64,000 bases of DNA from an uncultured Methanosarcinales archaeon (GCA_964473285.1 CAYYOI010000001.1:1689-65688); one strand, 5' to 3'; positions 9,593 to 33,141 are shown, counted from the stretch's first letter. Program-made: numbers and translations. Notes: a model not told the origin generated them from the letters alone.

Positions 9593-9624
9593 GATCTACA
9601 GCAAGGAAGCTTTCTTTAAATAGT

Positions 9625-11130
9625 TTATGGTGGGTTTTTTCTCATATTTTCAGGTCTATAGAACTGATCAGGATTCTGCCGGGATTGCTGATATGGGGAA
9701 GATTGACCAGGGTTTTGAAATGGCTGGCTTTGTGTGGACTGTGCCTGCCGGAATTCCTGACCTGTTTTTGGATTTTGTGGACGCTGGTAGAACTGGGCTG
9801 GAGGTGCCTGTCCTTGCTGGAATTGCTGGTTTTGGGCAGGTTGATTCTGCTGAGGCTGCATTTGTGGGGGGGGGTTTTGCTGCTGGGATTGTTTTCTTCT
9901 TGTGAAGATAAACATCCAGGCTACATTTATCGCTATGAGAACAACTATAAGGATTATAAGGACTGTGTTTCCGTCTGTTTCTTCACTGTCTGCAATCACT
10001 TTTGCAGTAGGAGAAAAGTCTGTGACAATCTCGTTTAATGTTACTGTCGCATTGAAAAGCTTCTCAGTGACCTTTTCTTCATAATTTACCTGTAGTTTTA
10101 TGTCATATTCACCGGGAGAGATATCTTTAGTGTCCCAATAGGCATTAACCTTCTCTACTGAGCCTGGCGCGATGGAAACAGATGATGTCTTGAAATCAGC
10201 ATATTCTTTCCCTTGCTTGTCAAGGACAAACAGATGAGCATAAACATCATTTATAGGCCTGTTCCAGCGATTCATGAGGTCTATCTGGAATTTGGCGATA
10301 TCACCGTGCTTGAAGTCGGGAACATCAACATCAACAACCTCCACCCGCATGCTTCCAACATAGAAATTCTTCTTTACAGTAAAGGATTTGTCATCATAGG
10401 TAACTGTTGCGATGGCATGGTAGAGTCCAGGGCTGACATCTGCCTTCCATCTTGATAGAAGCTTTACTTCATCCTGTACTGAAAGGCTTTCGGATTGGGT
10501 AAGAACTGTTGCGAGCACCTCATTCGTTGGGCCCCGGACCTCAATTGAAGCCTGGATATCCTGGATCTTCTCGCTACCGAAGTTATAGACTGGTAACTTG
10601 AAACCTGCATAGCCCCCAACATCAGCATCCTCAATAAAAAGCTTGCCTTCTGCATACTTATCAGGGTAGGGCACAAACACTGAAAGTTTTGATACAACTG
10701 CAGTTGTTGCCTGAACAACTGTTCCTTTCTCTTCAGACTCAAAGACAACCTGCGAGTCATCTATTACCACCGCTGAGCCTGCATCATCAGGGATATGCAT
10801 GGCAACAAGGTCAATCTCATGAACCCCTGGCTGGTCTATCTTTTCAGGCAGGGTAAGATTGAAATTGATTGTCTTCTCTTTCTCTCCCTGGGAGAAGCTT
10901 ACTATCGATTTTTTGAAACGAATTGTCTCTGCCAGATCTCCCTTGGGATATACGATGGCTTTCATGGGCTTTCCTTCAGGATTTAGGACCCTGATCTTCA
11001 AAGAATCTTCAAGTGAGGGCTGGAATTCCACGCTCTGTTTTGCAGGAGCTATACCAATACCGTAGGCAGAGCCAGCAAAAAGCAATACAAGGAAAACTAA
11101 CATTACTTTCTTATTCACCGGGCTCACCAT
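9625..11130 (-). CDS. Type-I membrane surface protein with Ig-like/CARDB-like beta domains, one TM and a Pro/Gln-rich low-complexity cytoplasmic tail
   Basis: Signal peptide 'MVSPVNKKVMLVFLVLLFAGSAYG'. TM 'VLIILIVVLIAINVAWMFIF'. Tail 'QQQNPPPQMQPQQNQPAQNQQFQQGQAPPAQ...'. Overlaps the giant-gene stop by 20 nt. Confidence 0.7.
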   Translation of the reverse strand: MVSPVNKKVMLVFLVLLFAGSAYGIGIAPAKQSVEFQPSLEDSLKIRVLNPEGKPMKAIVYPKGDLAETIRFKKSIVSFSQGEKEKTINFNLTLPEKIDQPGVHEIDLVAMHIPDDAGSAVVIDDSQVVFESEEKGTVVQATTAVVSKLSVFVPYPDKYAEGKLFIEDADVGGYAGFKLPVYNFGSEKIQDIQASIEVRGPTNEVLATVLTQSESLSVQDEVKLLSRWKADVSPGLYHAIATVTYDDKSFTVKKNFYVGSMRVEVVDVDVPDFKHGDIAKFQIDLMNRWNRPINDVYAHLFVLDKQGKEYADFKTSSVSIAPGSVEKVNAYWDTKDISPGEYDIKLQVNYEEKVTEKLFNATVTLNEIVTDFSPTAKVIADSEETDGNTVLIILIVVLIAINVAWMFIFTRRKQSQQQNPPPQMQPQQNQPAQNQQFQQGQAPPAQFYQRPQNPKTGQEFRQAQSTQSQPFQNPGQSSPYQQSRQNPDQFYRPENMRKNPP

Positions 11131-14100
11131 AAAATATCAATGTTGACTGTTTCTTACCTGGAGGTTCTTCCCAGGGTACTTCGATTTTTACTTCAATCTC
11201 GGCTTCATCTGAATCATCATGATGGAGGAGTTGTCTTATCATGTATGCATTGGAGGAGACATTTGTCCACTCGGTTACTGACTGGTTGTAATCGAATGAT
11301 GCATATTCTGTTGAATTGCCTGCCTTTATCTGGAAAAAACGGGAGGGACTCCTTGCCATAGGGCTTTCCCAGAGGTCATCCTGAGCAGAAATATTATGGA
11401 TATCAATTATTATGTTTCCATCGTTTCTCACTATGAATGGTTGGGGGGTGGAGCTGTTGGAATCATCTGTCGTTTCTATGCTGTCACCTACACGCTGGAC
11501 ACCGAATGATACATTTTCATTAGCTAGGGAAACTATGATCCTAGACTCTATCGAGAAGTTCCATGGCTCTGACCAGTTACTGTGAACAATGCCATCATAG
11601 GCCTGGATCCTCCAGGAATATATGGAATCATAATCGAGATCCTGAAAAGGGGTGAAGTTGAGATTTGTTATGTTTGTCTTGTTTATCTCATGGACAGAAC
11701 ACTGCAATGGTCCACTGCATTCCTCTAACTCAATGAGGAGGTTATATGATAAATTATCTGCATTGGAATCATATGCTTCTTCCCATGAGAATATTGGCCG
11801 ACGCTCAAATACTGTGAAATTATCTTCCTGGGGGGTCAGCCTTACCGGGATCTCAGGAGGTATATTTTCCTGAAGCCCGACTGTGAAAGTGTTCGTTTGT
11901 GAAGTGTTTTGAATCTCTTCATGCCAGCAGGTAACACTCCAGTTGTGTATCCCCTGGGAAAGATTATTTACAACTGTGTGAGTAACATCCCCACTACTTG
12001 TTATTACAGTAGTGTTTATTTCACCATCCAAAGATAAGTTACAAGTAACCTGTTCTCCCAAAACATCTGTTTTAGGTGTCCAGTTAAAATCAATGTTTTG
12101 GCTTTCAATCCTTTGCCCATCACGCGGATGGTGGAGTTCTATAGGAAGATAATTCACTATCTCAATGGTATCAGAGGCCTGGGATTTCATCGGGCGATAA
12201 AAATCAGTACTCTGGATGTTGCATTGGTAATCGTATGAGCCAAGGCTTGAACTGGAAAGGTCTATCTCATAAGAGGCATAGCCATCTGAACCAGAATAGG
12301 ATGAGCCTAGGTATCCTTCAGGCCCGTAATACTGTACAAGATAAGATGAGATAGGATCTGCAGTATCAGCATCAGTAACACTACATGTGAGGTTTGTCAC
12401 GCCTCTTGGTGTTATACCTGAAGGACTGACCCAATCAACCCTACTATTTCCTGTAAGGTTAAAATAGAGATATGGCACGGTATTGTTTATGTTCTTATTG
12501 GAATCATTTGCCCAAAGCTTTATTGCATGCTTTCCTATGGTCCAGGAATTGTTGGTGCATAAAGTAAGGTTCGTCCAGTTAACAGAATATGGCTTAGGGA
12601 TATCTTGTTCAATAAAATCAGAACTATTGTAGATTGCTCTTGCAGTATCAGGTTCTTCGTCCCACTTTCCGTAAAGGTATAAACATTCTCCCCTTGAAAG
12701 CTCAGTGTCATTGATCCCATATTCCTCAAGCTTGGGAGGATATATGTTTGATGTATTGACTACGTTCAATGAGATATTTGCGGAATCTATTGTTGCATTG
12801 TAGTAGAGCTGGTTTGTGATGTTACAAGTCATGGTGTGGAGTCCTAACTCACTGTCATTGAACTGGTATGTTGCCCATCCTGAAGCATTTGTAATATTAT
12901 TACCAAGATAGACCCCATTCCTGTAATAGGTCACATTGTATCCAGCAATCCCTGTATCATTGAGGTCCTGGACAAAGCATCCTGTTGTGGTGTAGTTTCC
13001 AATGCGAACGCTTGATCTTCTTTGGAATGAGTCTGTGATTCCAGAGTATCCCCACACTTCCATTTGTTGGATTGGTGTCTCATTGGAGTTAAGAGATGTA
13101 TCCCTGGCATATTGCTTCCATCCGTACAGCCCTGGATCTGTATCGGTTGGAACAGAATAATCAATATGTGCCCATGTATCATTTGAATCAAGGGAAATAT
13201 TTGTTACATTTGAAAATACTCCAGTTAGATTTAATGATAGAGTTGCATCTTCAAGTATTGCATTATCAGTCCATCTAACAGAGTAGGTTTCTCCCTGTCC
13301 TTTGTATGTCTTAACTGGCCCTGATATCTCCTTGTAACGTGGTGGATCAAATTCTCTTACGAATACAGTCTCATGAGATATATTCCGGTGATCAACCTTA
13401 TAGAGGGATGTTTCTGAGATATTACAGGTGAGATCATAGAGGCCATAGGTTGATGGCTCATAGATATAGGCAATCTCTCCTGCTTCATTGGTTGTTGACT
13501 GGTAGATGGGATAATCATCAGAATACAATGATACGGTATAACCTGGAATGGAGGACTGATTTGTCTCGTCAATTATTGAGCAAGTAATCCTGACTGAATC
13601 ATTTAGATCAATCTCTGTCTGGTTAATGCTCAAGTCATCCACCGTAGCAAGTCCATAGACGTTGAATGATAGATAAGGGAGAGTATCATTCCAAAAGCCG
13701 CTCGGATTATTTGCTTCAATACGCGTGACATGCTTACCAAGCAACCAGTTTGCTGAAGGGTTGAATGTATAATTGGTCCAGTTGTGCGGATTGGATTCAG
13801 AAAGTGTTATTTCATCTGATACCATACCTGGAATGGTTGCATTATAAAATACGTTTGCCTCGCCTATCTCCTGGTCCCAACGTGCAAATATGGTTGTATC
13901 CTGTGAATTCCTTATGACGTCATTTGTTGATAGTCCATAGATTGCTTCATGAAGATGAGGGAAATCATATTGCCTGTTGATAACATGGAAAAGAGATTCA
14001 TCAGATTTGGTGAATAGGCTATCATCTACTGTAAATACAACTGGGTAGTCTCCAGTGGAGGTCATGTTTACTGCATATGAAAGTGTCAATTTTGTATCAA

Positions 14101-17100
14101 CAGGTACTGTTCCTCTTGCATTCCACATGACTGTTCCATTGAAGGTTCCATTGTATTCATTCCCACCATATCCTATCTTATACCAGATGTCCTGGCTTTC
14201 GTTCAAATGCCAGGTTTGGTTGAGCCCGGCATGTGAGAAATCACTCTCAGATATGTTCCAATCCTGTGAATCGAAATGATTCTTCATCTCAATCTCTATC
14301 CGATATGATTCATTTCCAAAAAGTGTGAATGTCTTTGCTAGTCCTGAGTCAATAAGAGTTCCGCTTGAATATCGTGTTGTCTCATTCACTTCATAGATAC
14401 GTATATCCTCTATTGTCACGTATGTTTGCGGACCAAGAATTGTGAACTCATCATATCCTTCGTATACTCCTTCACTTGCTTGGATGGGTTCACCATAAGG
14501 AGTCTGCATATAAGCATATACCCTATAGGTGCCACCTTCAGAATTTTTGGTATCCCAAGGATTCCAAATCTTTTCAAGATCAAAGATGGTATCAGCGTTA
14601 ACTGTTTTTTCAATCCCGTTTATATGGGTATCAATTGTCTGCCATGTGTCATCATATCGCTGGATCTCTGCAAATACCTCACCCCGGAATGTTTCTGTAG
14701 TGCTTAGGGTATCATCTGCAAATGTTTCCTCTTCACCCATCTCATAATCAATCTCTCCGGTAAGAACTATCTTTATATCATCATATGTGTAGATTGGTGC
14801 TCCGTCTGAAGATATGCGTATCTGATCAAGATCTGTAGGATTGTCAGTGAAATCAAGGTCTTGGACAGTTGTTGATTGCCTGTGGTAATCGTACTTGTCA
14901 GCCACATCAAGCCTGTAATCATAATCTCCGGAAACATCCTCTTCTATAATATTGCCTGAGGCAGTGCTTGGATAGCGGGTGATATAATAATCTACAACCA
15001 TCCCTCCCCATGAACTCTCCCTATGAGTATAGATTGCTGGACCTAATCCTGCCACATCATCTGCATCTGTCATTTCTGATGCGTCACCAACACCAATGTG
15101 CTGCCACCAACCATCCCCACTATCAGGAGAGACCATATTGAATGATAAATTGAAAGCTTCCTGTAGCACCGAGAGATTGTGCTTGACACCAGCTGTACCT
15201 TGTACTTGCAGATGATTATTCACAATCTGTGTGTCTGTATCTGTGCCCCATTCTGACCAATTATTTCCAATATCATTCGAATCAGCACGATTGAAATCAT
15301 CGTAGAAATAATAGACTTCTGATTTATCAGAAGGGGCAATACCTGCATCAGGATTATGATAGTAAACGTAATATGAACCATTTCCTCGTGTCTTGAAAAG
15401 TATCCTTGTATTTGAAGAATCAAATGATGAGAGGTTAATCCTTGCAAGCTCAACATTCCCTGTCCCATTGAACCATACAATCCTAAGGTCATTGCCTGAG
15501 GGAAGCATTGAACGGGTATCCATACTTATCTCCATAGTATGACCATCTATGGTATCGTTCAGGATTATTTCCTTTCTTCTCTCGTATGAACCATCCCACC
15601 AGGGCACTGTCTCTATCAAGGTAACGTTCTCATGAAGATCATATGTGGATTCATTCACCTTTACCTGTATACCTCCATCCGCCTTCACTACAAAAGATGA
15701 AAGTGAAGAATGATTAATACTTCCAGAGGTATCTTTTGCAAACACCTGGACATGATAGGTTCCATTAAACCATGTGTCAGAGAACTGTCCTGTAAACAAC
15801 TCACCTGAAGAAAGAGATATATTTGTAGTAGAAGTGTTAGGGTATGTTACCTGGGCCCATGCAGAATCAATGGATGTATCATCTGTTATATTTGCTTGTA
15901 TTGTCTGATTGATGCCATATCCTATCACAGGGTCTATCATAACCTCATGGATGGTTGGCTTAAGTCCCAGATACATCTGTTCATAGCCAACAGAGGGGTT
16001 AGTGTAGTCATCAGGTGAACCCTCATAGGTCGCATTCAATGTGTGTAATCCTAATGAAAGTTCAGGCGTGAAGCTTTTGGTTGCCCACCCCTGCTCATTT
16101 GTGATAGCTGATCCTATTGCCTGATCATCTGTCTCGTCAAAGAAATATATCCTTTCCCCTGAAATTGCGGTGCCATTATCATAAACTAACCTTGCCTGCA
16201 GCTCTATCTCTTCTCCTCTTGATGTATCATTGTCAGAGACAATAAAAGATGAGATCGCTGTTTTTGCGTAAATGTCAATATAGGTATTCTTGAAATCTGA
16301 CTTGACTCCTGATCCAGCTGATTCAGCAGTCACATGTTGCGTACCCAGAGAGGTGGATATGGGAACGTCAAATGTCGCATTATTCCAGAGTACTTCACCA
16401 GCATACAGTAAAGATACATATGAGGAATCTGGTGTTACAAGTCCCCATGAAAGAGGATATGTTGTTATATTGAGATAGGCATCCACAACATCAGAATTGT
16501 TGGAACTCTGTGCAAGATAGCTTATGTCTGCCTGATTTCCACGGGTAATGCTTGATGGCGCGCTGTATTGGGTGATCTCAAATGTTCCCTGTTCACGTAT
16601 CTCTAATTTCTGGTTGAGGATCTCATCCCATACCTTTATCTCTTCACCAGGGTTAATGTACTTGATGGTCACATTCATATCATAGTCTCCAACAGAAGCT
16701 GTTCCTGTACTTATATTATATACTGCAGTAAGGGGACCTGCCAATGTGGCCATATTGCAGTCACTTACACAGGCACAGGATATGTTCTCCGGGCAGTTTA
16801 ATGAGATAGATACATCTGTTAGGTTCCTGCTCCATTCATTTTGCATTGAGAAATTAACGAGTTGTGAGGTGTTGAGATATTGCCGGCTTATATTTGAAAC
16901 AGCAAAATCTTCCCTCAGATTATGAATCAGGATATATTCGCTCCTATTGACACGCAATGGACCATTCAGTAAATCCATCACCACATCCCACTTTAACATG
17001 TAGCTTCCTTCGGCATCCTCAGGGATTGTATAGCCTTCATTCCATTGACGGGTCTTTGTGGTGTTGTATGGGATCTCTCCATAGTGCTTTGTTTCCTGAT

Positions 17101-20100
17101 AGGGCCCAAACCCCACGTAATCCAAAGCGTACTTGTCAAGTAAAGTAAGCGTTACTTCTGAGTCAAGCGCAGTATTATTTGCTGCAAAAAGAGTTATATT
17201 GATCCAATCTATTGTGTCGGTAGTCTCATATTCATCTATTGTATTCTCATGTGTCAGGTTTGCAAGATGCAGATAAGATTGAAGAATATAGAATGTATCA
17301 TAACCTACTATCTGTTCATAATCACTACCAACAATTATCTGATCATCCCTATCAGGATTAGTAGTGTTTCTTACAAGAGAGAACTTCACCCTGTACTTCC
17401 CATGAGGGTATATGCCTGTATTCCAGGGATTATTGTTCCAATCATAGTAATAATCAAGGGTAGTGCCATTGGCAATTGTCTTTATGTCATCTGTTGCAAT
17501 GTCATTTATTGGTACGGGATAAAGGTTTTCCCAATAAAGCCCATTGTAATACTGTATGTTTGCCCACCTGTAACCATTAATTGGTCTATCTCCTGTGTTA
17601 AGTGCCCTGCTTGCTGCCTGGACATCACCATACTCTAGCTGTGTATCATGCAGTTCTCTTAGGGTGAAATTAGTGAGGTAATCGTTACCGTTCATGGCCA
17701 CGCTTACAAACCCTATGGCTGAGGGCTCAAGATCTATATCATAGCTTGCCTGCAATGAGTCATCAACGTACATGGAAAGTGTGCTGGACTCATACCTGAG
17801 CCGGATAGTATGTTTAGACTGTGAATCAATATCTTCTGATGTGGCCTGAAGAAGATTAGGAGTATTGCCTTGTGTCTGAGAGAATATTCCGTCTGTACCT
17901 CCATCGGGAAAATCGTTGCTTATGAGGGCTTCGTAGTAGGTTGAACCTGACTGGACAAAAAGACCAAGCGCGTCATCATCATCACCATGGACTGTCACTT
18001 CAGCTTCAAATTCACTAGGTACTATAGAAGGATAAGCGATCATGTCATCATTGCTGTCATCTATAGTAATACGTTCTTGTGCTGTGTCCCATGTGAAAAG
18101 ACCATTGTTTGCACCACGATCATAGATAACTTCCTCAATATATTCACTTTCCTTATCCTCGCTTACATCATCATAGAAATCAAATACTTCGCTCTTATTC
18201 TCTTGAGTTGGAGGACCATCATAATACATGGTAATTTCGCTTTGGTTTTTGAGCCTGACATATATGCTTGTATTCTTTATCCAGTGGGCCAGTCTTTCGT
18301 TTCCATAGAAAGCAATATCAGAACCATTCGTGTATCTCCAGACTTCAGGATTATCTATCTCAAGTATAACAGTCCTGTTTGTTGCGTTAGTAGTTATGGG
18401 AAGTTTCTTATTCCATTCATAAAAGCGGTCTGATAGATATACATCCTCATGGTTTTGGTAACTATCTTTTTCCAGTTGAGGTGAGACTATAGCAGATCCC
18501 TGGACATCTGCATATACTGTACTCTCTGCCTGTATTCCATCTATGTTCGTAGCAGTAATGTTGAAAGTATAAGTTCCCACATCCCATGTATTACGATATT
18601 CTAAAGAGTCATTGAAGGTAAAAATCTCTTGTGTCCCGTCTGGCCTTGTGAATTTGGTTTCCAGAGAATCTATCCCTCTGGTGTCATTTGCTGAGATATT
18701 CAGATTGATAAGTCCCCCTATTCCTGCATCATTGACTGAAATGTTAGTTATATTTGGTCTTGAGGATATGAACAGATTGCTCTCATCCTCTGAAGGGTTA
18801 AAGTATCTTTCATAGTCTTTTTGGAATATAGTTTTTAAGGTGTGGTTTCCTATTGAGCTCTCCGGCACCTCTATGCTTGCTGAAAATGATCCTTCATCTG
18901 CGATAGCAGAACCGACTTTTGAATCATCAATAAAGATTAGAACTGTACCAGACACATCCTTACCCATATCATCTTTAAGAGTGCCTGAGACCCTGATCTC
19001 ATCTCCAGATGCGGTAACTGGATCAGAGCTTGTATCAAGTACAGTATCCGCAAAAACATAAATTATCTTTTCATTGCTAACGCTGTCTCCTGTAAGGCGC
19101 AATACAAATTTACCATGCTTTTTGGGTGTGACCTGCCATTGAGGTGAACAATCCCCACTGCAGGGATAAGGATTTGATGCAGCAAATACAGTATCACTTT
19201 CACTCATGTTGGTGAAAAACATTGCAAGTGATGTCTTGTAATTGATCGAAATACTATTAAAAATAGGAGTAATTGTCTTGTTGGTCGTTACCATTCGTAC
19301 CTGGTACTGGAGGAAGCGGCGACCATCTGAGGTTATCTGTTGCCCATTGGTTTGTCTTTCCCAGTCGGTCCATGAACTTTTGTCATCTGAGGTTCGTGTA
19401 TAAATACTGAGATTCGTACCTGTAGGTTCATCTGACAGGTATTCAATGGTATCATAATATACAATTGATGCATTTGTATCAAGACTGTCTGAAGTATAAT
19501 TTCCATAAAGGGAAAAACTTACATTTTCATGCTTCCATTTTTGTATTGATACAGGTGTGTTCTCACGGGAAAAGATCCATTCTATCCTCATTTCAGAATC
19601 CCCGTCATTTACCAAATATAATGGACCTGTAGGGGTTTGTGTGGCACTATGTCCCCTGCCCTGGGTTGTATCATTAAACAATGTTGATTCGCTATTTACT
19701 GTTACCATGTAATTATGAAGTCCTTCGTTGTTCCTGGCCTGACCTGATTCACTTAAATCCCCACCCCATCGATTTCGGTCGATAACAAAATCATACTCTG
19801 TAGTCCCGAACCATGTACCTGTTTCATAATGCTCAATGAAATTCCATGAACCAATCCCTATACCTGCTCTCCAGTCATCAGAGTTCCCACGCATTGCAAA
19901 CTCTATTATCTTTGGTTCACTTACGGTATATTCCGAGGTATAGATATATTCAAGTTCAGTGCCTGGCTGACCTACAAACTCACCTCCTGTGATTGAGTAT
20001 GATCCTTCATTGTCAATCCATTTAGAGGTCTCAAGAGATGAGTTCTCAAAATCCTCGAAAAAGTCAAAGACCTTATCACCATCACTGGTATCTTGAGCAC

Positions 20101-23100
20101 CGGGATTCCCGTAATAGACAAATATTGTATCTGTACCTTCCTTTATCTGTGTCCAGAGGATGGCATGATTGCTATCTGATTCCTGGACCCAGTGTGGTAA
20201 GATCTCTTCTTTTTGGGTGGAGGTATTGAGAGAGGTTATCCTGATATCTGAGAAGTCTGTAGCTGAAAAATCAAGGTCATCTGTATCCAGTTCAATCTTT
20301 GCCTGGGATCTGCCAGTAACGTTGAATGACAGACGATGAGGCCATTCCTGATCATACCATGTATTAGTAGATATATCAGGTAGAAGTCTTAGATCATCTG
20401 TTACGCTGATGTTGTTATTCTCAGAATAACTCCTGAATCCATCATATGAATCATCAAGTTCACCTGAACCGCCAATCTTCTTGTACTGGGCGGCAATCTC
20501 ATCAGTACCTGAATATGTACCGTTCATGTGAAAATCAGTGAAAAGGTCATGATAAGGATAATCCGGTTCATCAATAAGCAAGTCTCCTTCATACCAGGAG
20601 ATCGCCCATTCGTTAACTCTGGGGCTGAATGAGGTGTTTGTAGTATTGAGTACTGCTTCTATTGACAAATTATCATAACCAAAAGTGCATCCACTGATGT
20701 CGTATTCAGTTATTTCTTCTGCCACTGGTATCTCGCAGAGGGTGTTTTCACTGAACAGCCGATAAGTAATGTTTGTACTCTCTGGGATATAATGATCTGC
20801 AAAAAAGGTTGTAAAGGAAGCGTTGGAGTCTATGAGTCCTGTAGTAAGGTTTCCAGAGGATTCATACTCGGAAAATTCAGAACTAATATTTACTGTGTGT
20901 GTGTCACTTGTCCTGTTAAGGTAAATGATCCAGTCAAGACCTGCCCTGTTTGCACCATCATTGTCAGAATCACACCATGCCTCTATATAACCATCTGAAT
21001 AAGTATCTGAGGATCCGGTTATCTCATACCCATGATAATCATTGTAGAAACTGAAATAAGTTCCTGAGAATACTCCTTTTGAACGAACCCATAGATCCTG
21101 GGGAAGGAAGTTGTCAAACAGGGAGAGATAATCAAAACCAGGCATGTCCACAATTCCCACATTTTCAGCATCCCTGCTGTCCAGCATGAAAAATGTTCCT
21201 TCAGCCACATCGTCAGTATTAGGTTCCCTTACACCTATAGCCCCATCAAAGTCTCCGTCACTGTCAGGAGTTAGCATACGCCAGTATAGTGTACCATTTG
21301 CAAATGTATCTATGCTTGCAAAGCTTGGATTGTTCTGGTTGTTGAACCATCCGCCACCATCAGTCCAGTATTCTACATATCCTTCACCTTCAGGGAAATT
21401 ATAATGACCGTCGGTCACAACCTGCCATTTGTTGGTATCAAGACTGCCATCATTGAAATCATCGAAAAAAGGAAAGACCTGTTCACCATCGTGATAACTG
21501 CTTTGGCTGGCATCCTGATTTGCATAGTATACCCTGAATGATTCTGTATCATCTATCCTTGGAGCTCTTACCCAGATAGTTGTCTGTGACCTGTTGCAGT
21601 AGCCTTCTTCTATCCAAAAATAGACCTGCTGTTCTGAACCATTTTTCCAGGTGATGCGAAGATCTGAACAATCCCCTTTCATCTTATTCTCATTGATTAG
21701 AGTCCTTGTATCAAGTGTGAATGAGAAAGGATAGTTACCTGGAGACTCTCCTGTAAGAGTTATATCTCTTGAGTGTCTCCAGCATCCGCTCTCCATATAA
21801 TCAAGACAACCTTTCTGAAGTTCTACGCCACCTTTGTGTGTTGCATTGAATATAATATTATGGTGGGAAGAGATGCTTTCATTACTTCTTAGATCATCGT
21901 AATAAGACCTGTTCATATCAACAATTATAGGATCAATTGCTATGAACCAAGGACGAGCTTCATGGAAGGTATTATTTTCATACTCTATCTCTGAAGAGAG
22001 GCTATAGAGATCAGGGGTCTTCAATGGAGGCTGAAGCGTGTAGTTGAGTTGTGCTTCTCCTGAAGATTCCAATGTGATGGTATTGTTATCTATTATTCCT
22101 GTAGAGCTTTCAATTGAGAGGTTGGAAGGGATTTTTTCCTTTAGAGTATATGTACCGTTGTAATATGGCTTTATTGTGATGCTTGCCTTAAATGGGCCCT
22201 GCCAGGGGTCAGTTGTCATAGGAGCATCTCTTATTATCTCAAATGGATAATCCTTTTCCACAAGGAAGGATGAGTGCATGGTGTCATTGATCTTATCAGA
22301 GAGGGCATTTACTTCAAGTCCATACTCTCCTTCTTCTGCTGTATTGTATTCAAATGAATAGATTCCTTTGCTTATCTCTTCTATACTATTAAAAGTTGTA
22401 AGATTTGTGGGACTCTCTATTGTACATGATACATTGGCTGATGAAAGATAACCCTCACTATCAAGAATAACGATTGTTATGTTCGCTTTTTCACCGGGAG
22501 GGTATCTACTCTTGTTGGTGTTTACTGATGCAAGACCTGTCTCGAACTTTTGTGCTGAAAGGTGTGGAACCACCCATCTTATCTCATCATAAAGTCCATT
22601 GGAGTTGGTGTCTACGAAGGAAACATTGTATGAATCCTTGTCTGTTATATCAACCTTAGACCCGTTTATATAATGGTAGAGTCTTGGTTTCAGAATGGGC
22701 TCATCTATCTTTGTTGATGCGCTCACATTGATGTAGTGGAAGGAAGAATTTATGATTATCTCTTTCTTATGTCCCCTCTTTTTCTCTTTCTTGACAGGTG
22801 CGGGGGTAGAATAGGTTACCTTAAGGTCTCCAGTATATTCTGATCGATTTATCTCTCTCTTTTCTAGTCTGATTGTTTTTCCCTGATGAATAAGGCTTAT
22901 GTTGTGGGCTTGTGAAGGTATATCAAGGTTTTCATGTACTAGTTTTTCCCATCTGACTGGTTTTCCTGCTTCTGCCTTTTTTTGCTTTGCTTTTATCTTC
23001 TTTATCAAGATCTCTTCTTTTGTTATGTTTTCTCCTTTTCTTGCGTATATTGTGACGATTGATTCTTGCTCACTACCTGCAGTTACTCTCAAGATGCCAT

Positions 23101-24172
23101 TTGAAACTTTTGTCTCGTAATCCGAGCTTGCAAGATAGGTAACATTCTGTCCCATGTATTCTGAAAGATTCAGTTCTAATGTGTCAGTGATAGTGAATAC
23201 TTTAGGGCCTTGCCAAATAAGTTGTCTTGAAGAGGGTCTGCCTTTCTTTGTTGATGTGTTTGTTCCATTTTGCTTGTATGAGCCTGTTAGATTTTCTGAG
23301 GAATTTGCCTCAGAAGTCGATGGTTCTTCTTGTGTAATGTTTTCAGTGAGATTTTTTGTTGTTTGTGTGAGGTTTTTTGTCTTGTTATTTGTAAGGTTAG
23401 TATCTATATCTGTCAGGTTTCTTTGGTCTACAGTAATATTGCGGGTTTGGTTGTCTGTGAGATTTGTGTTTTTGGTAGTATTTGTTATAGTTTCATTGTT
23501 GATTGTCGTATTTTGTTTTGCTGTTGTGTTGTCTGTGAGGTTGTCTGTGAGGTTGTCTGTGAGGTTGTCTGTAAGGTTGTCTGTAAGGTTGTCTGTCAAG
23601 TTGTCTGTAAGGTTTGTGGGTTTTGTATTGTTGATACCCGCGATTGATTCATTCTCCTCTTTGGTAAAGTTGGACATATTACTCGTTGAACTCTTGTTTA
23701 TTTGCTCTGAAGTTGATCCATTAGTAGACCTGGACCTTATCCATTCTGTCTCTATGAATTCAGCTGATACATTTAGTGGAAGTTCATCTACTGGAATGAG
23801 AATTGTGCCGTTGCAGGTTTGATTGCAGGTCACAGTAGTATTAGAGCTTATTATCCAGCCGCTTTCATTGATGACATAAGATATATTAAGGCCTGATGCC
23901 TCTTCTGGTATGCTTGATTCAAAGCCTGCCATACCTGTATAGGTGGGTTCAAATACGAAAAGCGATACTGCAAAAAGGATTGCAATGGCTGCAAACAAAA
24001 TGAAAGGAAAGGATTTTGGTTCATTCCTGAGCATCTCTTCTTTTTGGTGGTAGTAATCTATCCATTCGTGACATGTTTTCCATTCGTTGTAATCTGAGGT
24101 TTCTCTGAGCCTTTTTTCCATTTGACGGCGATAGGACTGGCACAATCTTATGCGTGAATCTGTGCCTTTCAT
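11111..24172 (-). CDS. Giant (4353 aa) N-terminally membrane-anchored surface/adhesin-like protein. It is extremely rich in N-x-S/T sequons, has repeated LamG/concanavalin-like jelly-roll-like modules and Ig-like domains, and carries an (NLTD)7 repeat.
   Basis: Single 13-kb ORF. N-terminal basic cytoplasmic segment then TM 'FPFILFAAIAILFAVSLFVF'. Recurrent 'V(F/Y)xF(F/Y)DDF...LD(T/S)(S/N)KW' motifs: 'FPFFDDFNDGSLDTNKWQVV', 'FDFFEDFENSSLETSKWIDN', 'FDFYDDVSEDK', 'YYFYDDFNRADSN'. No C-terminal anchor. Confidence 0.85.
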   Translation of the reverse strand: MKGTDSRIRLCQSYRRQMEKRLRETSDYNEWKTCHEWIDYYHQKEEMLRNEPKSFPFILFAAIAILFAVSLFVFEPTYTGMAGFESSIPEEASGLNISYVINESGWIISSNTTVTCNQTCNGTILIPVDELPLNVSAEFIETEWIRSRSTNGSTSEQINKSSTSNMSNFTKEENESIAGINNTKPTNLTDNLTDNLTDNLTDNLTDNLTDNLTDNTTAKQNTTINNETITNTTKNTNLTDNQTRNITVDQRNLTDIDTNLTNNKTKNLTQTTKNLTENITQEEPSTSEANSSENLTGSYKQNGTNTSTKKGRPSSRQLIWQGPKVFTITDTLELNLSEYMGQNVTYLASSDYETKVSNGILRVTAGSEQESIVTIYARKGENITKEEILIKKIKAKQKKAEAGKPVRWEKLVHENLDIPSQAHNISLIHQGKTIRLEKREINRSEYTGDLKVTYSTPAPVKKEKKRGHKKEIIINSSFHYINVSASTKIDEPILKPRLYHYINGSKVDITDKDSYNVSFVDTNSNGLYDEIRWVVPHLSAQKFETGLASVNTNKSRYPPGEKANITIVILDSEGYLSSANVSCTIESPTNLTTFNSIEEISKGIYSFEYNTAEEGEYGLEVNALSDKINDTMHSSFLVEKDYPFEIIRDAPMTTDPWQGPFKASITIKPYYNGTYTLKEKIPSNLSIESSTGIIDNNTITLESSGEAQLNYTLQPPLKTPDLYSLSSEIEYENNTFHEARPWFIAIDPIIVDMNRSYYDDLRSNESISSHHNIIFNATHKGGVELQKGCLDYMESGCWRHSRDITLTGESPGNYPFSFTLDTRTLINENKMKGDCSDLRITWKNGSEQQVYFWIEEGYCNRSQTTIWVRAPRIDDTESFRVYYANQDASQSSYHDGEQVFPFFDDFNDGSLDTNKWQVVTDGHYNFPEGEGYVEYWTDGGGWFNNQNNPSFASIDTFANGTLYWRMLTPDSDGDFDGAIGVREPNTDDVAEGTFFMLDSRDAENVGIVDMPGFDYLSLFDNFLPQDLWVRSKGVFSGTYFSFYNDYHGYEITGSSDTYSDGYIEAWCDSDNDGANRAGLDWIIYLNRTSDTHTVNISSEFSEYESSGNLTTGLIDSNASFTTFFADHYIPESTNITYRLFSENTLCEIPVAEEITEYDISGCTFGYDNLSIEAVLNTTNTSFSPRVNEWAISWYEGDLLIDEPDYPYHDLFTDFHMNGTYSGTDEIAAQYKKIGGSGELDDSYDGFRSYSENNNISVTDDLRLLPDISTNTWYDQEWPHRLSFNVTGRSQAKIELDTDDLDFSATDFSDIRITSLNTSTQKEEILPHWVQESDSNHAILWTQIKEGTDTIFVYYGNPGAQDTSDGDKVFDFFEDFENSSLETSKWIDNEGSYSITGGEFVGQPGTELEYIYTSEYTVSEPKIIEFAMRGNSDDWRAGIGIGSWNFIEHYETGTWFGTTEYDFVIDRNRWGGDLSESGQARNNEGLHNYMVTVNSESTLFNDTTQGRGHSATQTPTGPLYLVNDGDSEMRIEWIFSRENTPVSIQKWKHENVSFSLYGNYTSDSLDTNASIVYYDTIEYLSDEPTGTNLSIYTRTSDDKSSWTDWERQTNGQQITSDGRRFLQYQVRMVTTNKTITPIFNSISINYKTSLAMFFTNMSESDTVFAASNPYPCSGDCSPQWQVTPKKHGKFVLRLTGDSVSNEKIIYVFADTVLDTSSDPVTASGDEIRVSGTLKDDMGKDVSGTVLIFIDDSKVGSAIADEGSFSASIEVPESSIGNHTLKTIFQKDYERYFNPSEDESNLFISSRPNITNISVNDAGIGGLINLNISANDTRGIDSLETKFTRPDGTQEIFTFNDSLEYRNTWDVGTYTFNITATNIDGIQAESTVYADVQGSAIVSPQLEKDSYQNHEDVYLSDRFYEWNKKLPITTNATNRTVILEIDNPEVWRYTNGSDIAFYGNERLAHWIKNTSIYVRLKNQSEITMYYDGPPTQENKSEVFDFYDDVSEDKESEYIEEVIYDRGANNGLFTWDTAQERITIDDSNDDMIAYPSIVPSEFEAEVTVHGDDDDALGLFVQSGSTYYEALISNDFPDGGTDGIFSQTQGNTPNLLQATSEDIDSQSKHTIRLRYESSTLSMYVDDSLQASYDIDLEPSAIGFVSVAMNGNDYLTNFTLRELHDTQLEYGDVQAASRALNTGDRPINGYRWANIQYYNGLYWENLYPVPINDIATDDIKTIANGTTLDYYYDWNNNPWNTGIYPHGKYRVKFSLVRNTTNPDRDDQIIVGSDYEQIVGYDTFYILQSYLHLANLTHENTIDEYETTDTIDWINITLFAANNTALDSEVTLTLLDKYALDYVGFGPYQETKHYGEIPYNTTKTRQWNEGYTIPEDAEGSYMLKWDVVMDLLNGPLRVNRSEYILIHNLREDFAVSNISRQYLNTSQLVNFSMQNEWSRNLTDVSISLNCPENISCACVSDCNMATLAGPLTAVYNISTGTASVGDYDMNVTIKYINPGEEIKVWDEILNQKLEIREQGTFEITQYSAPSSITRGNQADISYLAQSSNNSDVVDAYLNITTYPLSWGLVTPDSSYVSLLYAGEVLWNNATFDVPISTSLGTQHVTAESAGSGVKSDFKNTYIDIYAKTAISSFIVSDNDTSRGEEIELQARLVYDNGTAISGERIYFFDETDDQAIGSAITNEQGWATKSFTPELSLGLHTLNATYEGSPDDYTNPSVGYEQMYLGLKPTIHEVMIDPVIGYGINQTIQANITDDTSIDSAWAQVTYPNTSTTNISLSSGELFTGQFSDTWFNGTYHVQVFAKDTSGSINHSSLSSFVVKADGGIQVKVNESTYDLHENVTLIETVPWWDGSYERRKEIILNDTIDGHTMEISMDTRSMLPSGNDLRIVWFNGTGNVELARINLSSFDSSNTRILFKTRGNGSYYVYYHNPDAGIAPSDKSEVYYFYDDFNRADSNDIGNNWSEWGTDTDTQIVNNHLQVQGTAGVKHNLSVLQEAFNLSFNMVSPDSGDGWWQHIGVGDASEMTDADDVAGLGPAIYTHRESSWGGMVVDYYITRYPSTASGNIIEEDVSGDYDYRLDVADKYDYHRQSTTVQDLDFTDNPTDLDQIRISSDGAPIYTYDDIKIVLTGEIDYEMGEEETFADDTLSTTETFRGEVFAEIQRYDDTWQTIDTHINGIEKTVNADTIFDLEKIWNPWDTKNSEGGTYRVYAYMQTPYGEPIQASEGVYEGYDEFTILGPQTYVTIEDIRIYEVNETTRYSSGTLIDSGLAKTFTLFGNESYRIEIEMKNHFDSQDWNISESDFSHAGLNQTWHLNESQDIWYKIGYGGNEYNGTFNGTVMWNARGTVPVDTKLTLSYAVNMTSTGDYPVVFTVDDSLFTKSDESLFHVINRQYDFPHLHEAIYGLSTNDVIRNSQDTTIFARWDQEIGEANVFYNATIPGMVSDEITLSESNPHNWTNYTFNPSANWLLGKHVTRIEANNPSGFWNDTLPYLSFNVYGLATVDDLSINQTEIDLNDSVRITCSIIDETNQSSIPGYTVSLYSDDYPIYQSTTNEAGEIAYIYEPSTYGLYDLTCNISETSLYKVDHRNISHETVFVREFDPPRYKEISGPVKTYKGQGETYSVRWTDNAILEDATLSLNLTGVFSNVTNISLDSNDTWAHIDYSVPTDTDPGLYGWKQYARDTSLNSNETPIQQMEVWGYSGITDSFQRRSSVRIGNYTTTGCFVQDLNDTGIAGYNVTYYRNGVYLGNNITNASGWATYQFNDSELGLHTMTCNITNQLYYNATIDSANISLNVVNTSNIYPPKLEEYGINDTELSRGECLYLYGKWDEEPDTARAIYNSSDFIEQDIPKPYSVNWTNLTLCTNNSWTIGKHAIKLWANDSNKNINNTVPYLYFNLTGNSRVDWVSPSGITPRGVTNLTCSVTDADTADPISSYLVQYYGPEGYLGSSYSGSDGYASYEIDLSSSSLGSYDYQCNIQSTDFYRPMKSQASDTIEIVNYLPIELHHPRDGQRIESQNIDFNWTPKTDVLGEQVTCNLSLDGEINTTVITSSGDVTHTVVNNLSQGIHNWSVTCWHEEIQNTSQTNTFTVGLQENIPPEIPVRLTPQEDNFTVFERRPIFSWEEAYDSNADNLSYNLLIELEECSGPLQCSVHEINKTNITNLNFTPFQDLDYDSIYSWRIQAYDGIVHSNWSEPWNFSIESRIIVSLANENVSFGVQRVGDSIETTDDSNSSTPQPFIVRNDGNIIIDIHNISAQDDLWESPMARSPSRFFQIKAGNSTEYASFDYNQSVTEWTNVSSNAYMIRQLLHHDDSDEAEIEVKIEVPWEEPPGKKQSTLIFYGEPGE
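23529..23612 (-). repeat. In-frame 12-nt tandem repeat (about 7 units) encoding (NLTD)n near the N-terminus of the giant protein
   Basis: Plus strand reads 'gttgtctgtgag' x3, 'gttgtctgtaag' x2, 'gttgtctgtcaa', 'gttgtctgtaag'. The protein has 'TDNLTDNLTDNLTDNLTDNLTDNLTDNT'. Confidence 0.9.
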
Positions 24173-24660
24173 TTTTGCCTCGCCCTCCTATAGACTGTCC
24201 AGATTGTCCTTTCGTTGCGATTCAGCAGGATTGCGATCTCTGAGTATCTTAGGTTACGCTCGTCCCTCAGATAGCAGACAATACCTTCAAGGATTGTAAG
24301 GTTCTCCCGGATACAGGGTTTGAAAGGTATCTTTTGTGAATGTTCTATTGAAAGGGTGACATCCTGCTTTCTGGCATTATTGTATGTGGACCATATGACC
24401 TGGGAACTACGATTGAGAAGGGTTCCTATGTCCTTATTCTTGTAATTAAGATGGTCGCGAAGGTAAAGCACTGTTGCCTGGAGTGGACTTAGTGCCGAGT
24501 GGAATATAGAAAGAGGAATTTGCAGCTCATCATCAGGGGCCATCGATATGAGCATCTCTACAAGGGTCTCTTTTGGAAGTGCCAGAAGATGATCCTTTAT
24601 TTTAGGAAGAAGAGACTTATCTTTCAAAAGATCCTGCACAAACTTGGATTCCGGGCCCAC
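24169..24660 (-). CDS. Small cytoplasmic protein with two sigma-region-4/HTH-like repeats. Putative regulator at the head of the giant-protein operon, with a GTG start.
   Basis: Internal duplication 'LLNRSSQVIWSTYNNARKQ' / 'LLNRNERTIWTVYRRARQK'. 4-nt ATGA overlap with the giant-gene start. Confidence 0.55.
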   Translation of the reverse strand: MGPESKFVQDLLKDKSLLPKIKDHLLALPKETLVEMLISMAPDDELQIPLSIFHSALSPLQATVLYLRDHLNYKNKDIGTLLNRSSQVIWSTYNNARKQDVTLSIEHSQKIPFKPCIRENLTILEGIVCYLRDERNLRYSEIAILLNRNERTIWTVYRRARQK

Positions 24661-29997: not shown

Positions 29998-30177
29998 CTT
30001 AAACTACCTCAAAGGTCAAGCCATGAACACTGGTGAGCACTATACTGCCTAACAAACCAACTGTGCGCAACCAGTAGGGATACTTATGACAGGCTTGCCA
30101 GAATCCATTCCTAACCAAGATTGGCTGTTAGCTATATCTAATAAAATGAATATAAAATATAAATATTTTGTATACAC

Positions 30178-33137: not shown

Positions 33138-33141
33138 GAAA

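What the first reader, a model, noticed from the sequence alone, without database searches (positions are those of the whole stretch)
9625..24660. Three-gene surface-protein operon: dual-HTH protein, a 4353-aa giant sequon-rich protein, and an Ig-like membrane protein with a PQ-rich tail
Gene junctions overlap by 4 nt (ATGA) and by 20 nt, so the genes are probably co-translated. The giant protein is anchored only at the N-terminus (signal-anchor TM) and is packed with N-x-S/T sequons, consistent with a heavily N-glycosylated archaeal cell-surface fibre or adhesin. It reiterates at least four jelly-roll (LamG/ConA-like) modules marked by 'xFxFDDF...LDTxKW'. Giant proteins of this kind are hallmarks of cell-cell or cell-surface interaction. 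Examples are consortia-forming archaea and S-layer-associated fibres.
Basis: partly seen in the sequence, partly recalled or inferred. Interest (0 to 1): 0.55.

Follow-up and report, generated by a model that had tools for sequence, protein, structure and literature searches.

The report
Regulator, giant glycoprotein, anchor cassette
A tiny symbiotic-type archaeon (Woesearchaeota) encodes a 4353-residue sugar-coated surface fibre in a conserved three-gene cassette, together with its own DNA-binding regulator and a membrane partner protein, and this cassette recurs across the group and had not been described in the papers I could search.

Summary
Three overlapping minus-strand ORFs (163, 4353 and 501 aa) are real. 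They are identical in an independent assembly and conserved full-length in two other Woesearchaeota/Nanobdellota MAGs (76% and 64% identity, dN/dS 0.14).

Sequons are enriched 3-fold, and sequon Asn is conserved far better than other Asn.

The three genes form a functional cassette, not a chance adjacency. Distant giants with different ectodomains and different neighbours share four things:
- the same upstream sigma-70-region-4-type HTH gene, with a 4-nt overlap;
- an N-terminal cytoplasmic tail, one TM helix and an 'xTG[FLYM]' motif;
- a ~260-aa C-terminal domain (over 1000 protein clusters, nearly always terminal);
- often the same downstream partner.

The partner has three Ig-like sandwiches and a C-terminal TM helix. 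Its best structural match is the bacterial WxL-interacting protein.

HTH genes carry phased 'TACTTACATA' direct repeats upstream. The window has one copy, between the TATA box and the start codon.

The LamG/jelly-roll claim is unverified.

The most likely function is an N-glycosylated attachment fibre, autoregulated by the HTH protein and docked by the partner. Giant DPANN surface proteins are known; this cassette and its regulatory element appear new.

The parts
24688..24694 (-). TATA-like box TTTATAA, centred about 31 nt upstream of the HTH GTG start, inside a 167-nt AT-rich intergenic region. Putative promoter of the cassette, with a short leader or none.
   Evidence: Read directly from the sequence. 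A similar TTTATAA lies at the same distance in ortholog L008. The promoter function is inferred.
24668..24682 (-). Single copy of the family-wide upstream element (ATACTTACATAATAG; core ACTTACA at 24674-24680), between the TATA box and the start codon. Putative operator for the HTH protein.
   Evidence: locate it. 54 of 80 non-redundant HTH genes elsewhere have 1-6 direct copies within -300..+30, against 0.12 expected per region. Spacings peak at 22/31/42/53/64/94 nt. 47 of 51 repeat clusters in 926 kb lie directly upstream of an HTH ORF. Binding by the HTH protein is inferred.
24169..24660 (-). Gene 1: 163-aa protein with two tandem sigma-70 region-4-type HTH repeats (about aa 47-99 and 110-163). 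Each repeat reads 'IPxSIF..LSxLExIVxYLKE..L.YxEIAxLLNRxERTIW.VYxRAxKK'.
   Evidence: Pfam Sigma70_r4_2 at E 4e-11 with 2 stretches. NCBIfam gives weak ECF-sigma region-4 hits only. Family alignment A1. 42 clusters and 358 metagenome hits, named only from DPANN.
11111..24172 (-). Gene 2: 4353-aa giant surface protein. The ectodomain is 482 kDa with pI 4.3 and there are 190 sequons.
   Evidence: Orthologs. dN/dS 0.14.
24011..24172 (-). Giant aa 1-54: cytoplasmic N-terminal domain ('RIRLCQSYRRQ...EWIDYYH'). It is a short version of a domain shared by proteins encoded directly 3' of HTH genes.
   Evidence: Conserved in orthologs. A profile from 12 sequences finds 15 strong hits in the loci, all immediately downstream of an HTH gene.
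23930..24010 (-). Giant aa 55-81: the only TM helix (aa 55-74), followed by the conserved 'E-P-T-Y-T-G-M' motif (family pattern [PS]-x-[ILYV]-[TSL]-G-[FLYM]).
   Evidence: Hydropathy scan. Motif alignment. The role of the motif, whether a processing site or a structural feature, is unknown.
23183..23890 (-). Giant aa about 95-330: low-complexity, extremely sequon-dense stalk. It includes the 12-bp x 7.2 tandem repeat (NLTD)n at 23528-23614.
   Evidence: This is the only indel-bearing region between orthologs. The Logan contig break falls here.
21419..21673 (-). DUF2341 domain 1 (aa 834-918), ending in VFPFFDDF...LDTNKW.
20018..20257 (-). DUF2341 domain 2 (aa 1306-1385).
18152..18328 (-). DUF2341 domain 3 (aa 1949-2007, weak). 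The following segment gives the only faint Laminin_G_2 signal.
15257..15496 (-). DUF2341 domain 4 (aa 2893-2972, weak).
12023..13960 (-). Giant aa about 3405-4050: internally repeated Ig-like region with sub-threshold Big_1, Big_3_5 and SdrD_B hits.
   Evidence: Internal repeats. Pfam on chunks.
11114..11905 (-). Giant aa about 4090-4353: conserved C-terminal domain (CTD), made of an fn3-like domain plus a terminal beta-sandwich ending 'VP.DEPPG.K'.
   Evidence: It is the only region shared with the otherwise unrelated giant in L005/L094 and with L006. Exhaustive HMMER gives 1064 clusters at E<=1e-10 and 151 at E<=1e-30, nearly always at the extreme C-terminus of proteins up to 7282 aa. Consensus. 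No Pfam model matches it.
9625..11130 (-). Gene 3: 501-aa type-I membrane partner. It has a signal peptide (aa 1-24, '..AYG/IGIAP'), three beta-sandwich domains (aa about 25-372), a TM helix (about aa 388-409; window about 9901-9969) and a cytoplasmic Q/P-rich tail (aa 412-501; window 9628-9897).

Best explanation
This is one copy of a conserved Woesearchaeota (DPANN, Nanobdellota) surface-protein cassette. One transcript probably starts at a TATA box about 30 nt upstream of gene 1.

Gene 1 encodes a small DNA-binding protein made of two sigma-70-region-4-like HTH repeats. I infer that it binds the 'TACTTACATA' element lying between the TATA box and its own start codon, and so autoregulates the cassette.

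Gene 2 is translationally coupled to gene 1 through an ATGA overlap. It encodes a 4353-aa protein inserted N-in by a single TM helix. Its 482-kDa acidic ectodomain has three parts:
- a sequon-dense stalk;
- four DUF2341-headed modules and Ig-like repeats;
- a family-wide conserved C-terminal domain.
The ectodomain is very likely heavily N-glycosylated.

Gene 3 overlaps gene 2 by 20 nt. It encodes a type-I membrane protein of three Ig-like sandwiches that resembles the bacterial WxL-interacting protein. I infer that it binds the giant's C-terminal domain and holds or organises it at the cell surface.

The biological role is inferred by analogy with other DPANN giant surface proteins: attachment to a host cell or to a surface.

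What is shown: the gene structure, purifying selection, sequon selection, conservation of the cassette, the partner fold, and the association of the cis-element with HTH genes. What is inferred: DNA binding to that element, the CTD-partner contact, glycosylation itself, and adhesion.
For: Gene reality and selection.

Archaeal, Woesearchaeota origin.

Giant plus partner are conserved in different neighbourhoods: L005/L094, L007 and the JGI 3300072015 contig.

Giants chosen only by their CTD: an HTH gene lies upstream with a 4-nt overlap in 3 of 3, and the partner lies downstream in 2 of 3 (L094, L095, L096).

HTH-selected sample of 75 genes:
- 64 have an adjacent same-strand ORF;
- 59 of those overlap the HTH gene;
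- 59 of the 64 encode an N-terminal hydrophobic segment;
- the median is 3.65 sequons per 100 aa.

The CTD is the only region shared between unrelated giants, and it is terminal in more than 1000 clusters.

Cis-element.

DPANN giant LamG/Ig surface proteins are proposed host-attachment factors (PMC10266531).
Against: - There is no experimental or transcript evidence.
- The window has only one copy of the repeat element, and it deviates slightly from the 3' consensus.
- The partner is absent from one of three CTD-selected cassettes (L096) and from L049. The CTD therefore does not strictly need this partner.
- No WxL domain or DUF916 domain was detected, and archaea lack peptidoglycan, so the WxLIP analogy is structural only.
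- No ligand-binding domain is positively identified in the giant. The LamG assignment is unverified.
- The same strand continues into Orc1/Cdc6 after only 32 nt, so the 3' end of the transcript is uncertain.
- Adhesion is argued by analogy only.
Confidence: 0.62

Rival explanations
1. Sigma/anti-sigma-like signalling. The giant's cytoplasmic N-terminal domain (aa 1-54) sequesters the dual-HTH protein at the membrane. Contact of the ectodomain with a host, or cleavage near the 'PTYTGM' motif, releases the HTH protein to act on TACTTACATA promoters. This would couple surface sensing to expression of surface-protein genes. It is compatible with the adhesin reading and adds a regulatory mechanism to it.
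For: - The HTH is sigma-70 region-4 type.
- Its gene overlaps the gene of a single-pass N-in membrane protein, as in ECF sigma/anti-sigma pairs.
- A conserved cytoplasmic N-domain occurs only directly downstream of HTH genes in the sampled loci, 15 of 15 strong hits.
- It is conserved in orthologs although it lies inside the cell.
- Castelle et al. [quoted passage not shown]
Against: - 40 of 59 HTH-linked downstream proteins have only a signal-peptide-like N-terminus with no cytoplasmic domain.
- The N-domain has no zinc anti-sigma motif (HxxxCxxC).
- Archaeal RNA polymerase uses TBP/TFB, not sigma factors, and the protein lacks sigma region 2.
- All loci were selected through the HTH gene, so 'always next to HTH' is biased.
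Confidence: 0.2
2. The giant is a structural envelope component, such as an S-layer-associated sheath or spacer fibre, or a glycan-degrading or remodelling protein acting on host walls, rather than an adhesin. The partner would be its assembly platform.
For: - Heavy sequon load, an acidic ectodomain and membrane anchoring are typical of archaeal envelope glycoproteins (established knowledge of archaeal S-layer glycoproteins).
- Related CTD-bearing giants carry NosD/beta-helix, Disaggregatase-repeat and faint sialidase or pentaxin domains.
Against: - No catalytic domain was detected in this giant.
- Several different giants per genome, with variable ectodomains but constant termini (L095, L096), fit variable recognition modules better than a lattice protein.
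- At 4353 aa it is far larger than known S-layer subunits.
Confidence: 0.13
3. The three genes are merely neighbours in a compact genome, where short overlaps are common, and have no functional link.
For: All genes from SerRS to homocysteine methyltransferase lie on the same strand with short gaps or overlaps. Close orthologs share the whole neighbourhood.
Against: HTH-giant-partner is conserved in genomes where all other neighbours differ and where the giant's ectodomain is unrelated. HTH genes are linked to secreted-protein genes in 59 of 64 cases.
Confidence: 0.03

Closest known systems
Giant surface proteins of other DPANN archaea (nanohaloarchaeal 'SPEARE' proteins, e.g. SVXNc_0300, 9409 aa; LamG/PKD surface proteins of Nanohaloarchaeota and of the ARMAN-related Mia14)
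   Same: Very large, membrane-bound, acidic extracellular proteins built from Ig-like and lectin-like modules, in small-genome symbiotic archaea. They take a large share of the genome and are proposed to mediate host attachment (PMC10266531).
   Different: No VirB4/TraG-like ATPase domain and no adjacent secretion ATPase. This giant has an N-terminal anchor with a cytoplasmic domain, a different conserved C-terminal domain, and a dedicated HTH gene and WxLIP-like partner. None of these is mentioned in the passages of that paper that I read.
WxL / WxLIP cell-surface loci of Firmicutes (Enterococcus, Lactobacillus)
   Different: - The organism is an archaeon without peptidoglycan.
- No WxL domain was found in the giant and no DUF916 (PGBD) in the partner by Pfam.
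- There are three sandwiches rather than two.
- Sequence identity to WxLIP is about 12%.
- The giant also has its own N-terminal TM helix.
Bacterial ECF sigma / anti-sigma gene pairs
   Same: A sigma-70 region-4-type HTH gene overlaps the start of a gene for a single-pass, N-in membrane protein with a large extracytoplasmic part.
   Different: There are two region-4 repeats and no region 2. The transcription machinery is archaeal. No ZAS motif is present. Many partners have no cytoplasmic domain.
DUF2341-containing surface proteins (Pfam PF10102), which I recall often precede Laminin_G_3 domains
   Same: Four DUF2341 matches (150 bits in total). The collinear relative P0062 also has four.
   Different: The segments after DUF2341 do not reach significance for any ConA-like family here. 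DUF2341 itself has no known function.
Locus-specific regulators encoded as the first gene of bacterial surface-structure loci (e.g. Bacteroides UpxY; analogy from my own knowledge, not tested)
   Same: A multi-copy regulator family in which each copy is the first gene of a different surface-component locus. Several HTH-giant cassettes occur per genome (L095, L096).
   Different: The protein fold is unrelated (an HTH, not a NusG-like fold). The mechanism is unknown.

Membership tests
Pfam DUF2341 (PF10102) | Match to the family profile above the gathering score | tested here: met
   150.2 bits against a 23.4-bit cut-off, in 4 stretches. The individual copies on 520-aa chunks score 66.6, 99.6 (two copies together), 23.3 and 21.2 bits. 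The last two fall below the cut-off on their own.
LamG / Concanavalin-A-like jelly roll (Laminin_G_2/3) | Significant profile match or a jelly-roll fold for the segments following DUF2341 | tested here: inconclusive
   Laminin_G_2 matched in only 3 of 13 module sequences, best E 0.04. hhalign against the Laminin_G_3 copies of P0185 gave a best P of 0.006 and probability 6%. No PDB profile hit. The AF2 model had pLDDT 33.
Bacterial sigma-70 family factor | Region 4 (binds the -35 element) is present | tested here: met
   Sigma70_r4_2 at 42.7 bits against a 25.7-bit cut-off, two copies.
Bacterial sigma-70 family factor | Region 2 (core binding and -10 recognition) is present, with full-length match to sigma models | tested here: not met
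   No region-2 hit. NCBIfam sigma models score 13-30 bits against cut-offs of 43-323 and match only their C-terminal region. It is not a sigma factor.
ECF sigma / anti-sigma pair | Adjacent co-transcribed gene for a single-pass N-in membrane protein | tested here: met
   4-nt overlap and a single TM at aa 55-74 with a 54-aa N-terminal tail.
ECF sigma / anti-sigma pair | Recognisable anti-sigma domain (e.g. zf-HC2 HxxxCxxC) that binds the sigma factor | tested here: not met
   No Pfam or NCBIfam hit on aa 1-520. No HxxxCxxC in aa 1-54. Binding is not testable with these tools.
WxL-interacting protein (WxLIP) | DUF3324 / WxLIP_HBD IgG-like domain | tested here: met
WxL-interacting protein (WxLIP) | C-terminal transmembrane helix after the Ig-like domains | tested here: met
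   Helix at aa 388-399 and beyond in the model, and a conserved hydrophobic segment in the family alignment.
WxL-interacting protein (WxLIP) | DUF916 / WxLIP_PGBD domain | tested here: not met
   No Pfam hit at E<=0.1.
WxL-interacting protein (WxLIP) | Encoded with proteins carrying a C-terminal WxL domain | tested here: not met
   No WxL hit in the giant. Its C-terminal domain matches no Pfam family except a weak fn3 hit. It is an analogue, not a member.
Nanohaloarchaeal SPEARE-type giant proteins | VirB4/TraG-like ATPase domain, with a secretion ATPase gene downstream | tested here: not met
   No ATPase domain in the giant. The next genes are the partner and then Orc1/Cdc6.
Archaeal N-glycoprotein | N-x-S/T sequons enriched and selectively conserved on an extracytoplasmic protein | tested here: met
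   190 sequons against 64 +/- 7. 104 of 129 sequon positions are shared by three orthologs. Fisher p 1e-4 and 2e-9 against non-sequon Asn.
Archaeal N-glycoprotein | Glycans actually attached | not testable with these tools
   This needs glycoproteomics.
Archaeosortase substrates (PGF-CTERM and the like) | C-terminal tripartite sorting signal with a TM helix | tested here: not met
   The giant ends '...STLIFYGEPGE' with no C-terminal hydrophobic segment.

The most novel reading that the evidence does not exclude
The dual region-4 HTH proteins could be the 'sigma-70-like' genes noted as unexplained in Woesearchaeota. With the cytoplasmic N-domains of the surface proteins they are translationally coupled to, they would form an archaeal contact-sensing switch analogous to ECF sigma/anti-sigma pairs. 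The giant fibre would hold its own regulator at the membrane and release it on host contact or on processing at the xTG[FLYM] motif. The released regulator would act on phased TACTTACATA arrays that define a surface-protein regulon across Nanobdellota.
Probability: 0.18. Interest if true: 0.85.

Novelty: new variant of a known kind. Interest (0 to 1): 0.64.

Why it matters
DPANN archaea make up a large share of archaeal diversity. Most are thought to live attached to hosts, yet how Woesearchaeota recognise and hold on to partners is unknown, and none of the components here has been studied.

The analysis turns a single odd giant ORF into a defined, recurrent genetic module with testable parts:
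- a dedicated DNA-binding regulator and its likely operator (phased TACTTACATA repeats);
- a constant N-terminal anchor and cytoplasmic domain;
- a constant C-terminal docking domain found in more than 1000 protein clusters;
- a WxLIP-like membrane partner.

It also offers a concrete candidate answer to a published open question: what controls the sigma-70-like genes of Woesearchaeota (PMC8204110)?

The constant termini with variable middles suggest a cassette system for swapping recognition modules. That bears on host range and on annotating the many giant 'hypothetical proteins' in DPANN genomes.

Tried and rejected
- The whole-giant homology search timed out.
- The word-indexed search with aa 800-1500 found only one weak hit, so orthologs had to be reached through the partner and HTH genes.
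- PDB sequence searches with the giant, with the HTH profile and with the post-DUF2341 profile gave nothing useful.
- AF2 of a DUF2341 module with a 5-row alignment failed (pLDDT 33).
- hhalign of each post-DUF2341 segment against Laminin_G_3 copies, and against each other, was non-significant. The four segments are therefore not demonstrably homologous beyond their first ~75 residues.
- No tRNA or Rfam family lies in the window.
- A second weak HTH-profile hit in the window (54134-54517) turned out to be an AsnC/Lrp-type winged HTH, not a family member.
- Alignment A1 was too diverse for the pattern scan. A 13-sequence subset worked.
- Transposon-end reading of the repeat arrays: rejected. 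No inverted array exists at the other end, and there is no transposase domain (Pfam calls).
- SPEARE-type secretion 'straw': rejected, because there is no ATPase domain.
- Plain self-BLAST gave no internal repeats for technical reasons. A chunked search was used instead.

Full report
**1. Observation**

The window carries three consecutive minus-strand ORFs:
- 24169-24660 (163 aa, GTG start);
- 11111-24172 (4353 aa);
- 9625-11130 (501 aa).

They overlap by 4 nt (ATGA) and by 20 nt.

The first protein contains two Sigma70_r4_2-type HTH stretches.

The giant has a single hydrophobic segment at aa 55-74, preceded by a 54-residue charged tail. Its ectodomain is 482 kDa with pI 4.3. It holds 190 N-x-S/T sequons, against 64 +/- 7 in shuffles of its own composition. 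That is 4.4 per 100 aa, against roughly 0.2-1 in the window's cytoplasmic proteins.

The third protein has a signal peptide, three beta-sandwich domains, a TM helix and a 90-residue tail of 32% Gln and 18% Pro.

**2. Is the giant ORF real?**

- Two Logan contigs from run SRR11308339 are 100% identical to the window over the stretches compared and between them carry the whole ORF. They break only inside a 12-bp x 7.2 tandem repeat (23528-23614, encoding (NLTD)n). Its period keeps the reading frame whatever the copy number.
- A Candidatus Woesearchaeota MAG (JAWOGQ010000017) encodes a 4376-aa ortholog that is 76.3% identical over 4321 aligned residues. Indels are confined to aa 186-300.
- A Nanobdellota MAG (JBNJGT010000006) encodes a 4402-aa ortholog that is 64% identical over the C-terminal 3,317 aligned residues.
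- dN/dS against the closer ortholog is 0.14.

Frameshift and assembly-collapse explanations are excluded. Only the repeat copy number stays uncertain.

**3. Organism**

The neighbours include Orc1/Cdc6, SerRS and PCMT. All named relatives of the HTH protein and the partner are Woesearchaeota, Nanoarchaeota or Nanobdellota. The source is therefore a DPANN archaeon of the Woesearchaeota group.

**4. Glycosylation signal**

Of the 129 sequons in the C-terminal 3345 residues, 113 and 112 sit at the same column in the two orthologs, and 104 are shared by all three.

| Residue class | Conserved in the 76% ortholog | Conserved in the 64% ortholog |
|---|---|---|
| Sequon Asn | 0.88 | 0.87 |
| Other Asn | 0.67 | 0.52 |
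| Sequon S/T at +2 (kept as S/T) | 0.95 | 0.95 |
| Other S/T (kept as S/T) | 0.76 | 0.62 |

Fisher p for sequon Asn against other Asn is 1e-4 and 2e-9. Selection on the sequons is shown. The glycans themselves are inferred.

**5. Domain content of the giant**

Pfam finds four DUF2341 domains, at aa 834-918, 1306-1385, 1949-2007 and 2893-2972. The remaining hits are sub-threshold Ig-like matches: Filamin, MG2, Big_1, Big_3_5 and fn3. Internal repeats link aa 1706-1874 with 2634-2812, and 3405-3600 with 3700-4050.

I could not verify that the segments behind DUF2341 are LamG/ConA-like:
- Laminin_G_2 appears in 3 of 13 orthologous module sequences, best E 0.04.
- hhalign against the true Laminin_G_3 copies of a related giant gives at best P 0.006.
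- A PDB profile search finds nothing.
- The AF2 model was unusable.

From memory, a 'DEF.G..LD..W' motif opens GH16-type jelly rolls. The idea remains reasonable but untested.

**6. The partner**

Its family is small in the word-indexed search: 16 clusters, 26-93% identity.

The Q/P-rich tail exists only in the window and in a 93%-identical homolog. Other members end in a short basic tail.

**7. The three genes are one unit**

*Partner-selected loci.* These have different neighbours. In each, the partner lies immediately 3' of a giant gene, overlapping or abutting it:
- 4936 aa, with Laminin_G_3 and Disaggregatase repeats;
- 4080 aa, with DUF2341;
- a truncated ORF of at least 817 aa.

*The shared region.* The 4936-aa giant shares only its last ~275 residues with the window's giant (33% identity, E 1e-31). 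An exhaustive HMMER search with aa 4050-4353 found 2089 representative proteins, 1064 at E<=1e-10 and 151 at E<=1e-30. The match is nearly always at the extreme C-terminus, in proteins of up to 7282 aa. Many of these proteins are sequon-rich and start with a cytoplasmic tail, a TM helix and 'xTG[FLYM]'.

*CTD-selected giants.* I looked up three giants chosen only by this C-terminal domain:
- L094: HTH (70 aa, single repeat, E 4e-30), then giant (4936 aa), then partner.
- L095: HTH, giant (7265 aa), partner (E 1e-119), then a second HTH and a second giant (4250 aa).
- L096: HTH, giant (4736 aa), HTH, then a giant of 9294 aa, with no partner.

In all three, the HTH stop overlaps the giant's start by 4 nt.

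**8. The HTH family**

The word-indexed search found 42 clusters and the metagenome scan found 358 loci. Every source-given organism name is DPANN.

Among 75 non-redundant HTH genes with enough downstream sequence:
- 64 have a same-strand ORF of at least 100 aa starting within -40..+60 nt of the HTH stop;
- 59 of these overlap the HTH gene;
- 59 encode an N-terminal hydrophobic segment (40 signal-peptide-like, 19 preceded by more than 30 cytoplasmic residues);
- the median sequon density is 3.65 per 100 aa.

Downstream proteins range from about 250 aa to more than 3300 aa.

A subset, which includes the window's giant, shares a cytoplasmic N-domain: 'I.(L/I)C..YK ... EW(I/L).YYD', then the TM helix, then 'P.(I/Y)TG(F/Y/M)'. 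All 15 strong profile hits in the loci lie directly behind an HTH gene.

**9. A cis-element**

Upstream of the window's HTH gene there is a TTTATAA box (24688-24694), followed by ATACTTACATAATAG (24668-24682), 7 nt before the GTG. The ortholog has the same arrangement.

Across the loci:
- 54 of 80 non-redundant HTH genes carry 1-6 direct copies of ACTTACA within -300..+30. The expectation is 0.12 per region.
- There are 146 sites, with extended consensus T-ACTTACA-TA-nnn-AG.
- Spacings peak at 22, 31, 42, 53, 64 and 94 nt, which are multiples of one helical turn.
- Of 51 non-redundant clusters of at least two copies in 926 kb, 47 lie directly upstream of an HTH ORF. Two more are reverse-strand copies in such regions.

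In the window as a whole the 7-mer is not enriched (13 against 7.9 expected). The signal is therefore specific to these promoters.

Phased direct repeats in front of a DNA-binding protein's own gene are the classic signature of an autoregulated operator. A site between the TATA box and the start would, by analogy with known archaeal repressors, block polymerase recruitment. Binding is inferred, not shown.

**10. Mechanism proposed**

Confidence is about 0.6 for the whole; individual steps are marked as shown or inferred in the Best explanation section.

A promoter upstream of gene 1 drives a transcript covering the HTH regulator, the giant and the partner. Translation is coupled through the overlaps.

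The giant is inserted N-in, and its ectodomain is glycosylated at most of its roughly 190 sequons. The variable middle (DUF2341 modules and Ig-like repeats) provides reach and binding. The constant C-terminal domain is captured by the WxLIP-like partner in the same membrane.

A main alternative geometry exists. After cleavage behind 'TG', the fibre could be retained solely through the CTD-partner contact.

The regulator feeds back on its own promoter. The role in attachment rests on analogy with other DPANN giant surface proteins (PMC10266531).

**11. Comparison with the literature**

Giant LamG/Ig surface proteins of DPANN are known. The coarse category is therefore not new.

I found no description of the HTH-giant-partner cassette, the CTD, the N-domain or the repeat element (searches; papers read). 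The searchable library is limited to open-access papers.

Castelle et al. 2021 noted sigma-70-like genes prevalent in Woesearchaeota, found no anti-sigma factors, and called their control unclear. The family described here is probably that one. I could not check their family identifier.

**12. Verdict**

The specifics need correction: DUF2341 rather than a shown LamG domain, a likely second attachment through the C-terminus, and a lineage-specific cytoplasmic PQ tail. The locus exemplifies a widespread, apparently undescribed regulatory and anchoring cassette for giant glycoproteins in Woesearchaeota.

Noticed in passing
window 30000-50000: A low-GC island (28-36% against about 41%) carries a tyrosine integrase (32067-33137), a serine resolvase (38942-39634) and a 1232-aa primase-Toprim-MCM fusion (41183-44881). 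It also holds a 1325-aa sequon-rich (67 sequons) PQQ beta-propeller membrane protein (33471-37448). It looks like an integrated mobile element or provirus. The Logan contig L001 also carries an integrase at its far end.
   Followed up: partly
window 51541-54517 (-): This is a second regulator plus surface-protein pair of a different type. An AsnC/Lrp-type winged-HTH gene (54134-54517) overlaps by 8 nt an 866-aa sequon-rich ORF (51541-54141). The N-terminus of that ORF is a short tail, a TM helix and 'HPTGFAV', the same post-TM motif as in the giant.
   Followed up: partly
giant aa 76-81 (window 23930-23947); many loci (L009, L012, L017, L026, L094-L096) and proteins P0087-P0185: A motif [PS]-x-[ILYV]-[TSL]-G-[FLYM]-[AVT] sits at the outer end of the N-terminal TM helix of many Woesearchaeota surface proteins, whatever their size. 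It could be a signal-peptidase site or another processing or sorting site. I know of no description of it.
   Followed up: partly
L096 18069 onward; L010/L072 1-4524; L095 26107 onward: Related genomes carry tandem cassettes and even larger genes. A 9294-aa giant follows a second HTH gene in L096. An 8641-aa giant is followed by a 731-aa CARDB/Big_7 protein in ORJL010219931. A second HTH plus a 4250-aa giant lies directly after the partner in L095.
   Followed up: partly
L005 11586-14083: Downstream of the partner in GCA_003599145.1 lie two small proteins (217 and 214 aa) that match only the last sandwich of the giant's C-terminal domain. A second partner paralog (397 aa, E 6e-51) follows them. 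This looks like a WxL-style 'small protein made only of the docking domain'.
   Followed up: no
L006 2053-2517; L049 1449-1964; L054 2710-3690: The gene order varies. In L006 the HTH gene follows the partner. In L049 an HTH gene directly follows a CTD-bearing protein with no partner between them. L054 has a 327-aa fusion of two dual-HTH units, giving four HTH repeats.
   Followed up: no
window 8519-9624 (-): Orc1/Cdc6 starts only 32 nt after the partner's stop on the same strand, with a TTTAAA-like box in the gap. The same adjacency holds in both orthologous MAGs. The cassette may therefore sit next to a replication origin, and read-through into cdc6 is possible.
   Followed up: no
window 4851-7523 (+): An 890-aa ORF has no Pfam match. 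It sits between a response-regulator/HD-domain gene and the homocysteine methyltransferase gene, and the Logan contig L002 carries the same 890-aa gene. It appears cytoplasmic and its function is unknown.
   Followed up: no
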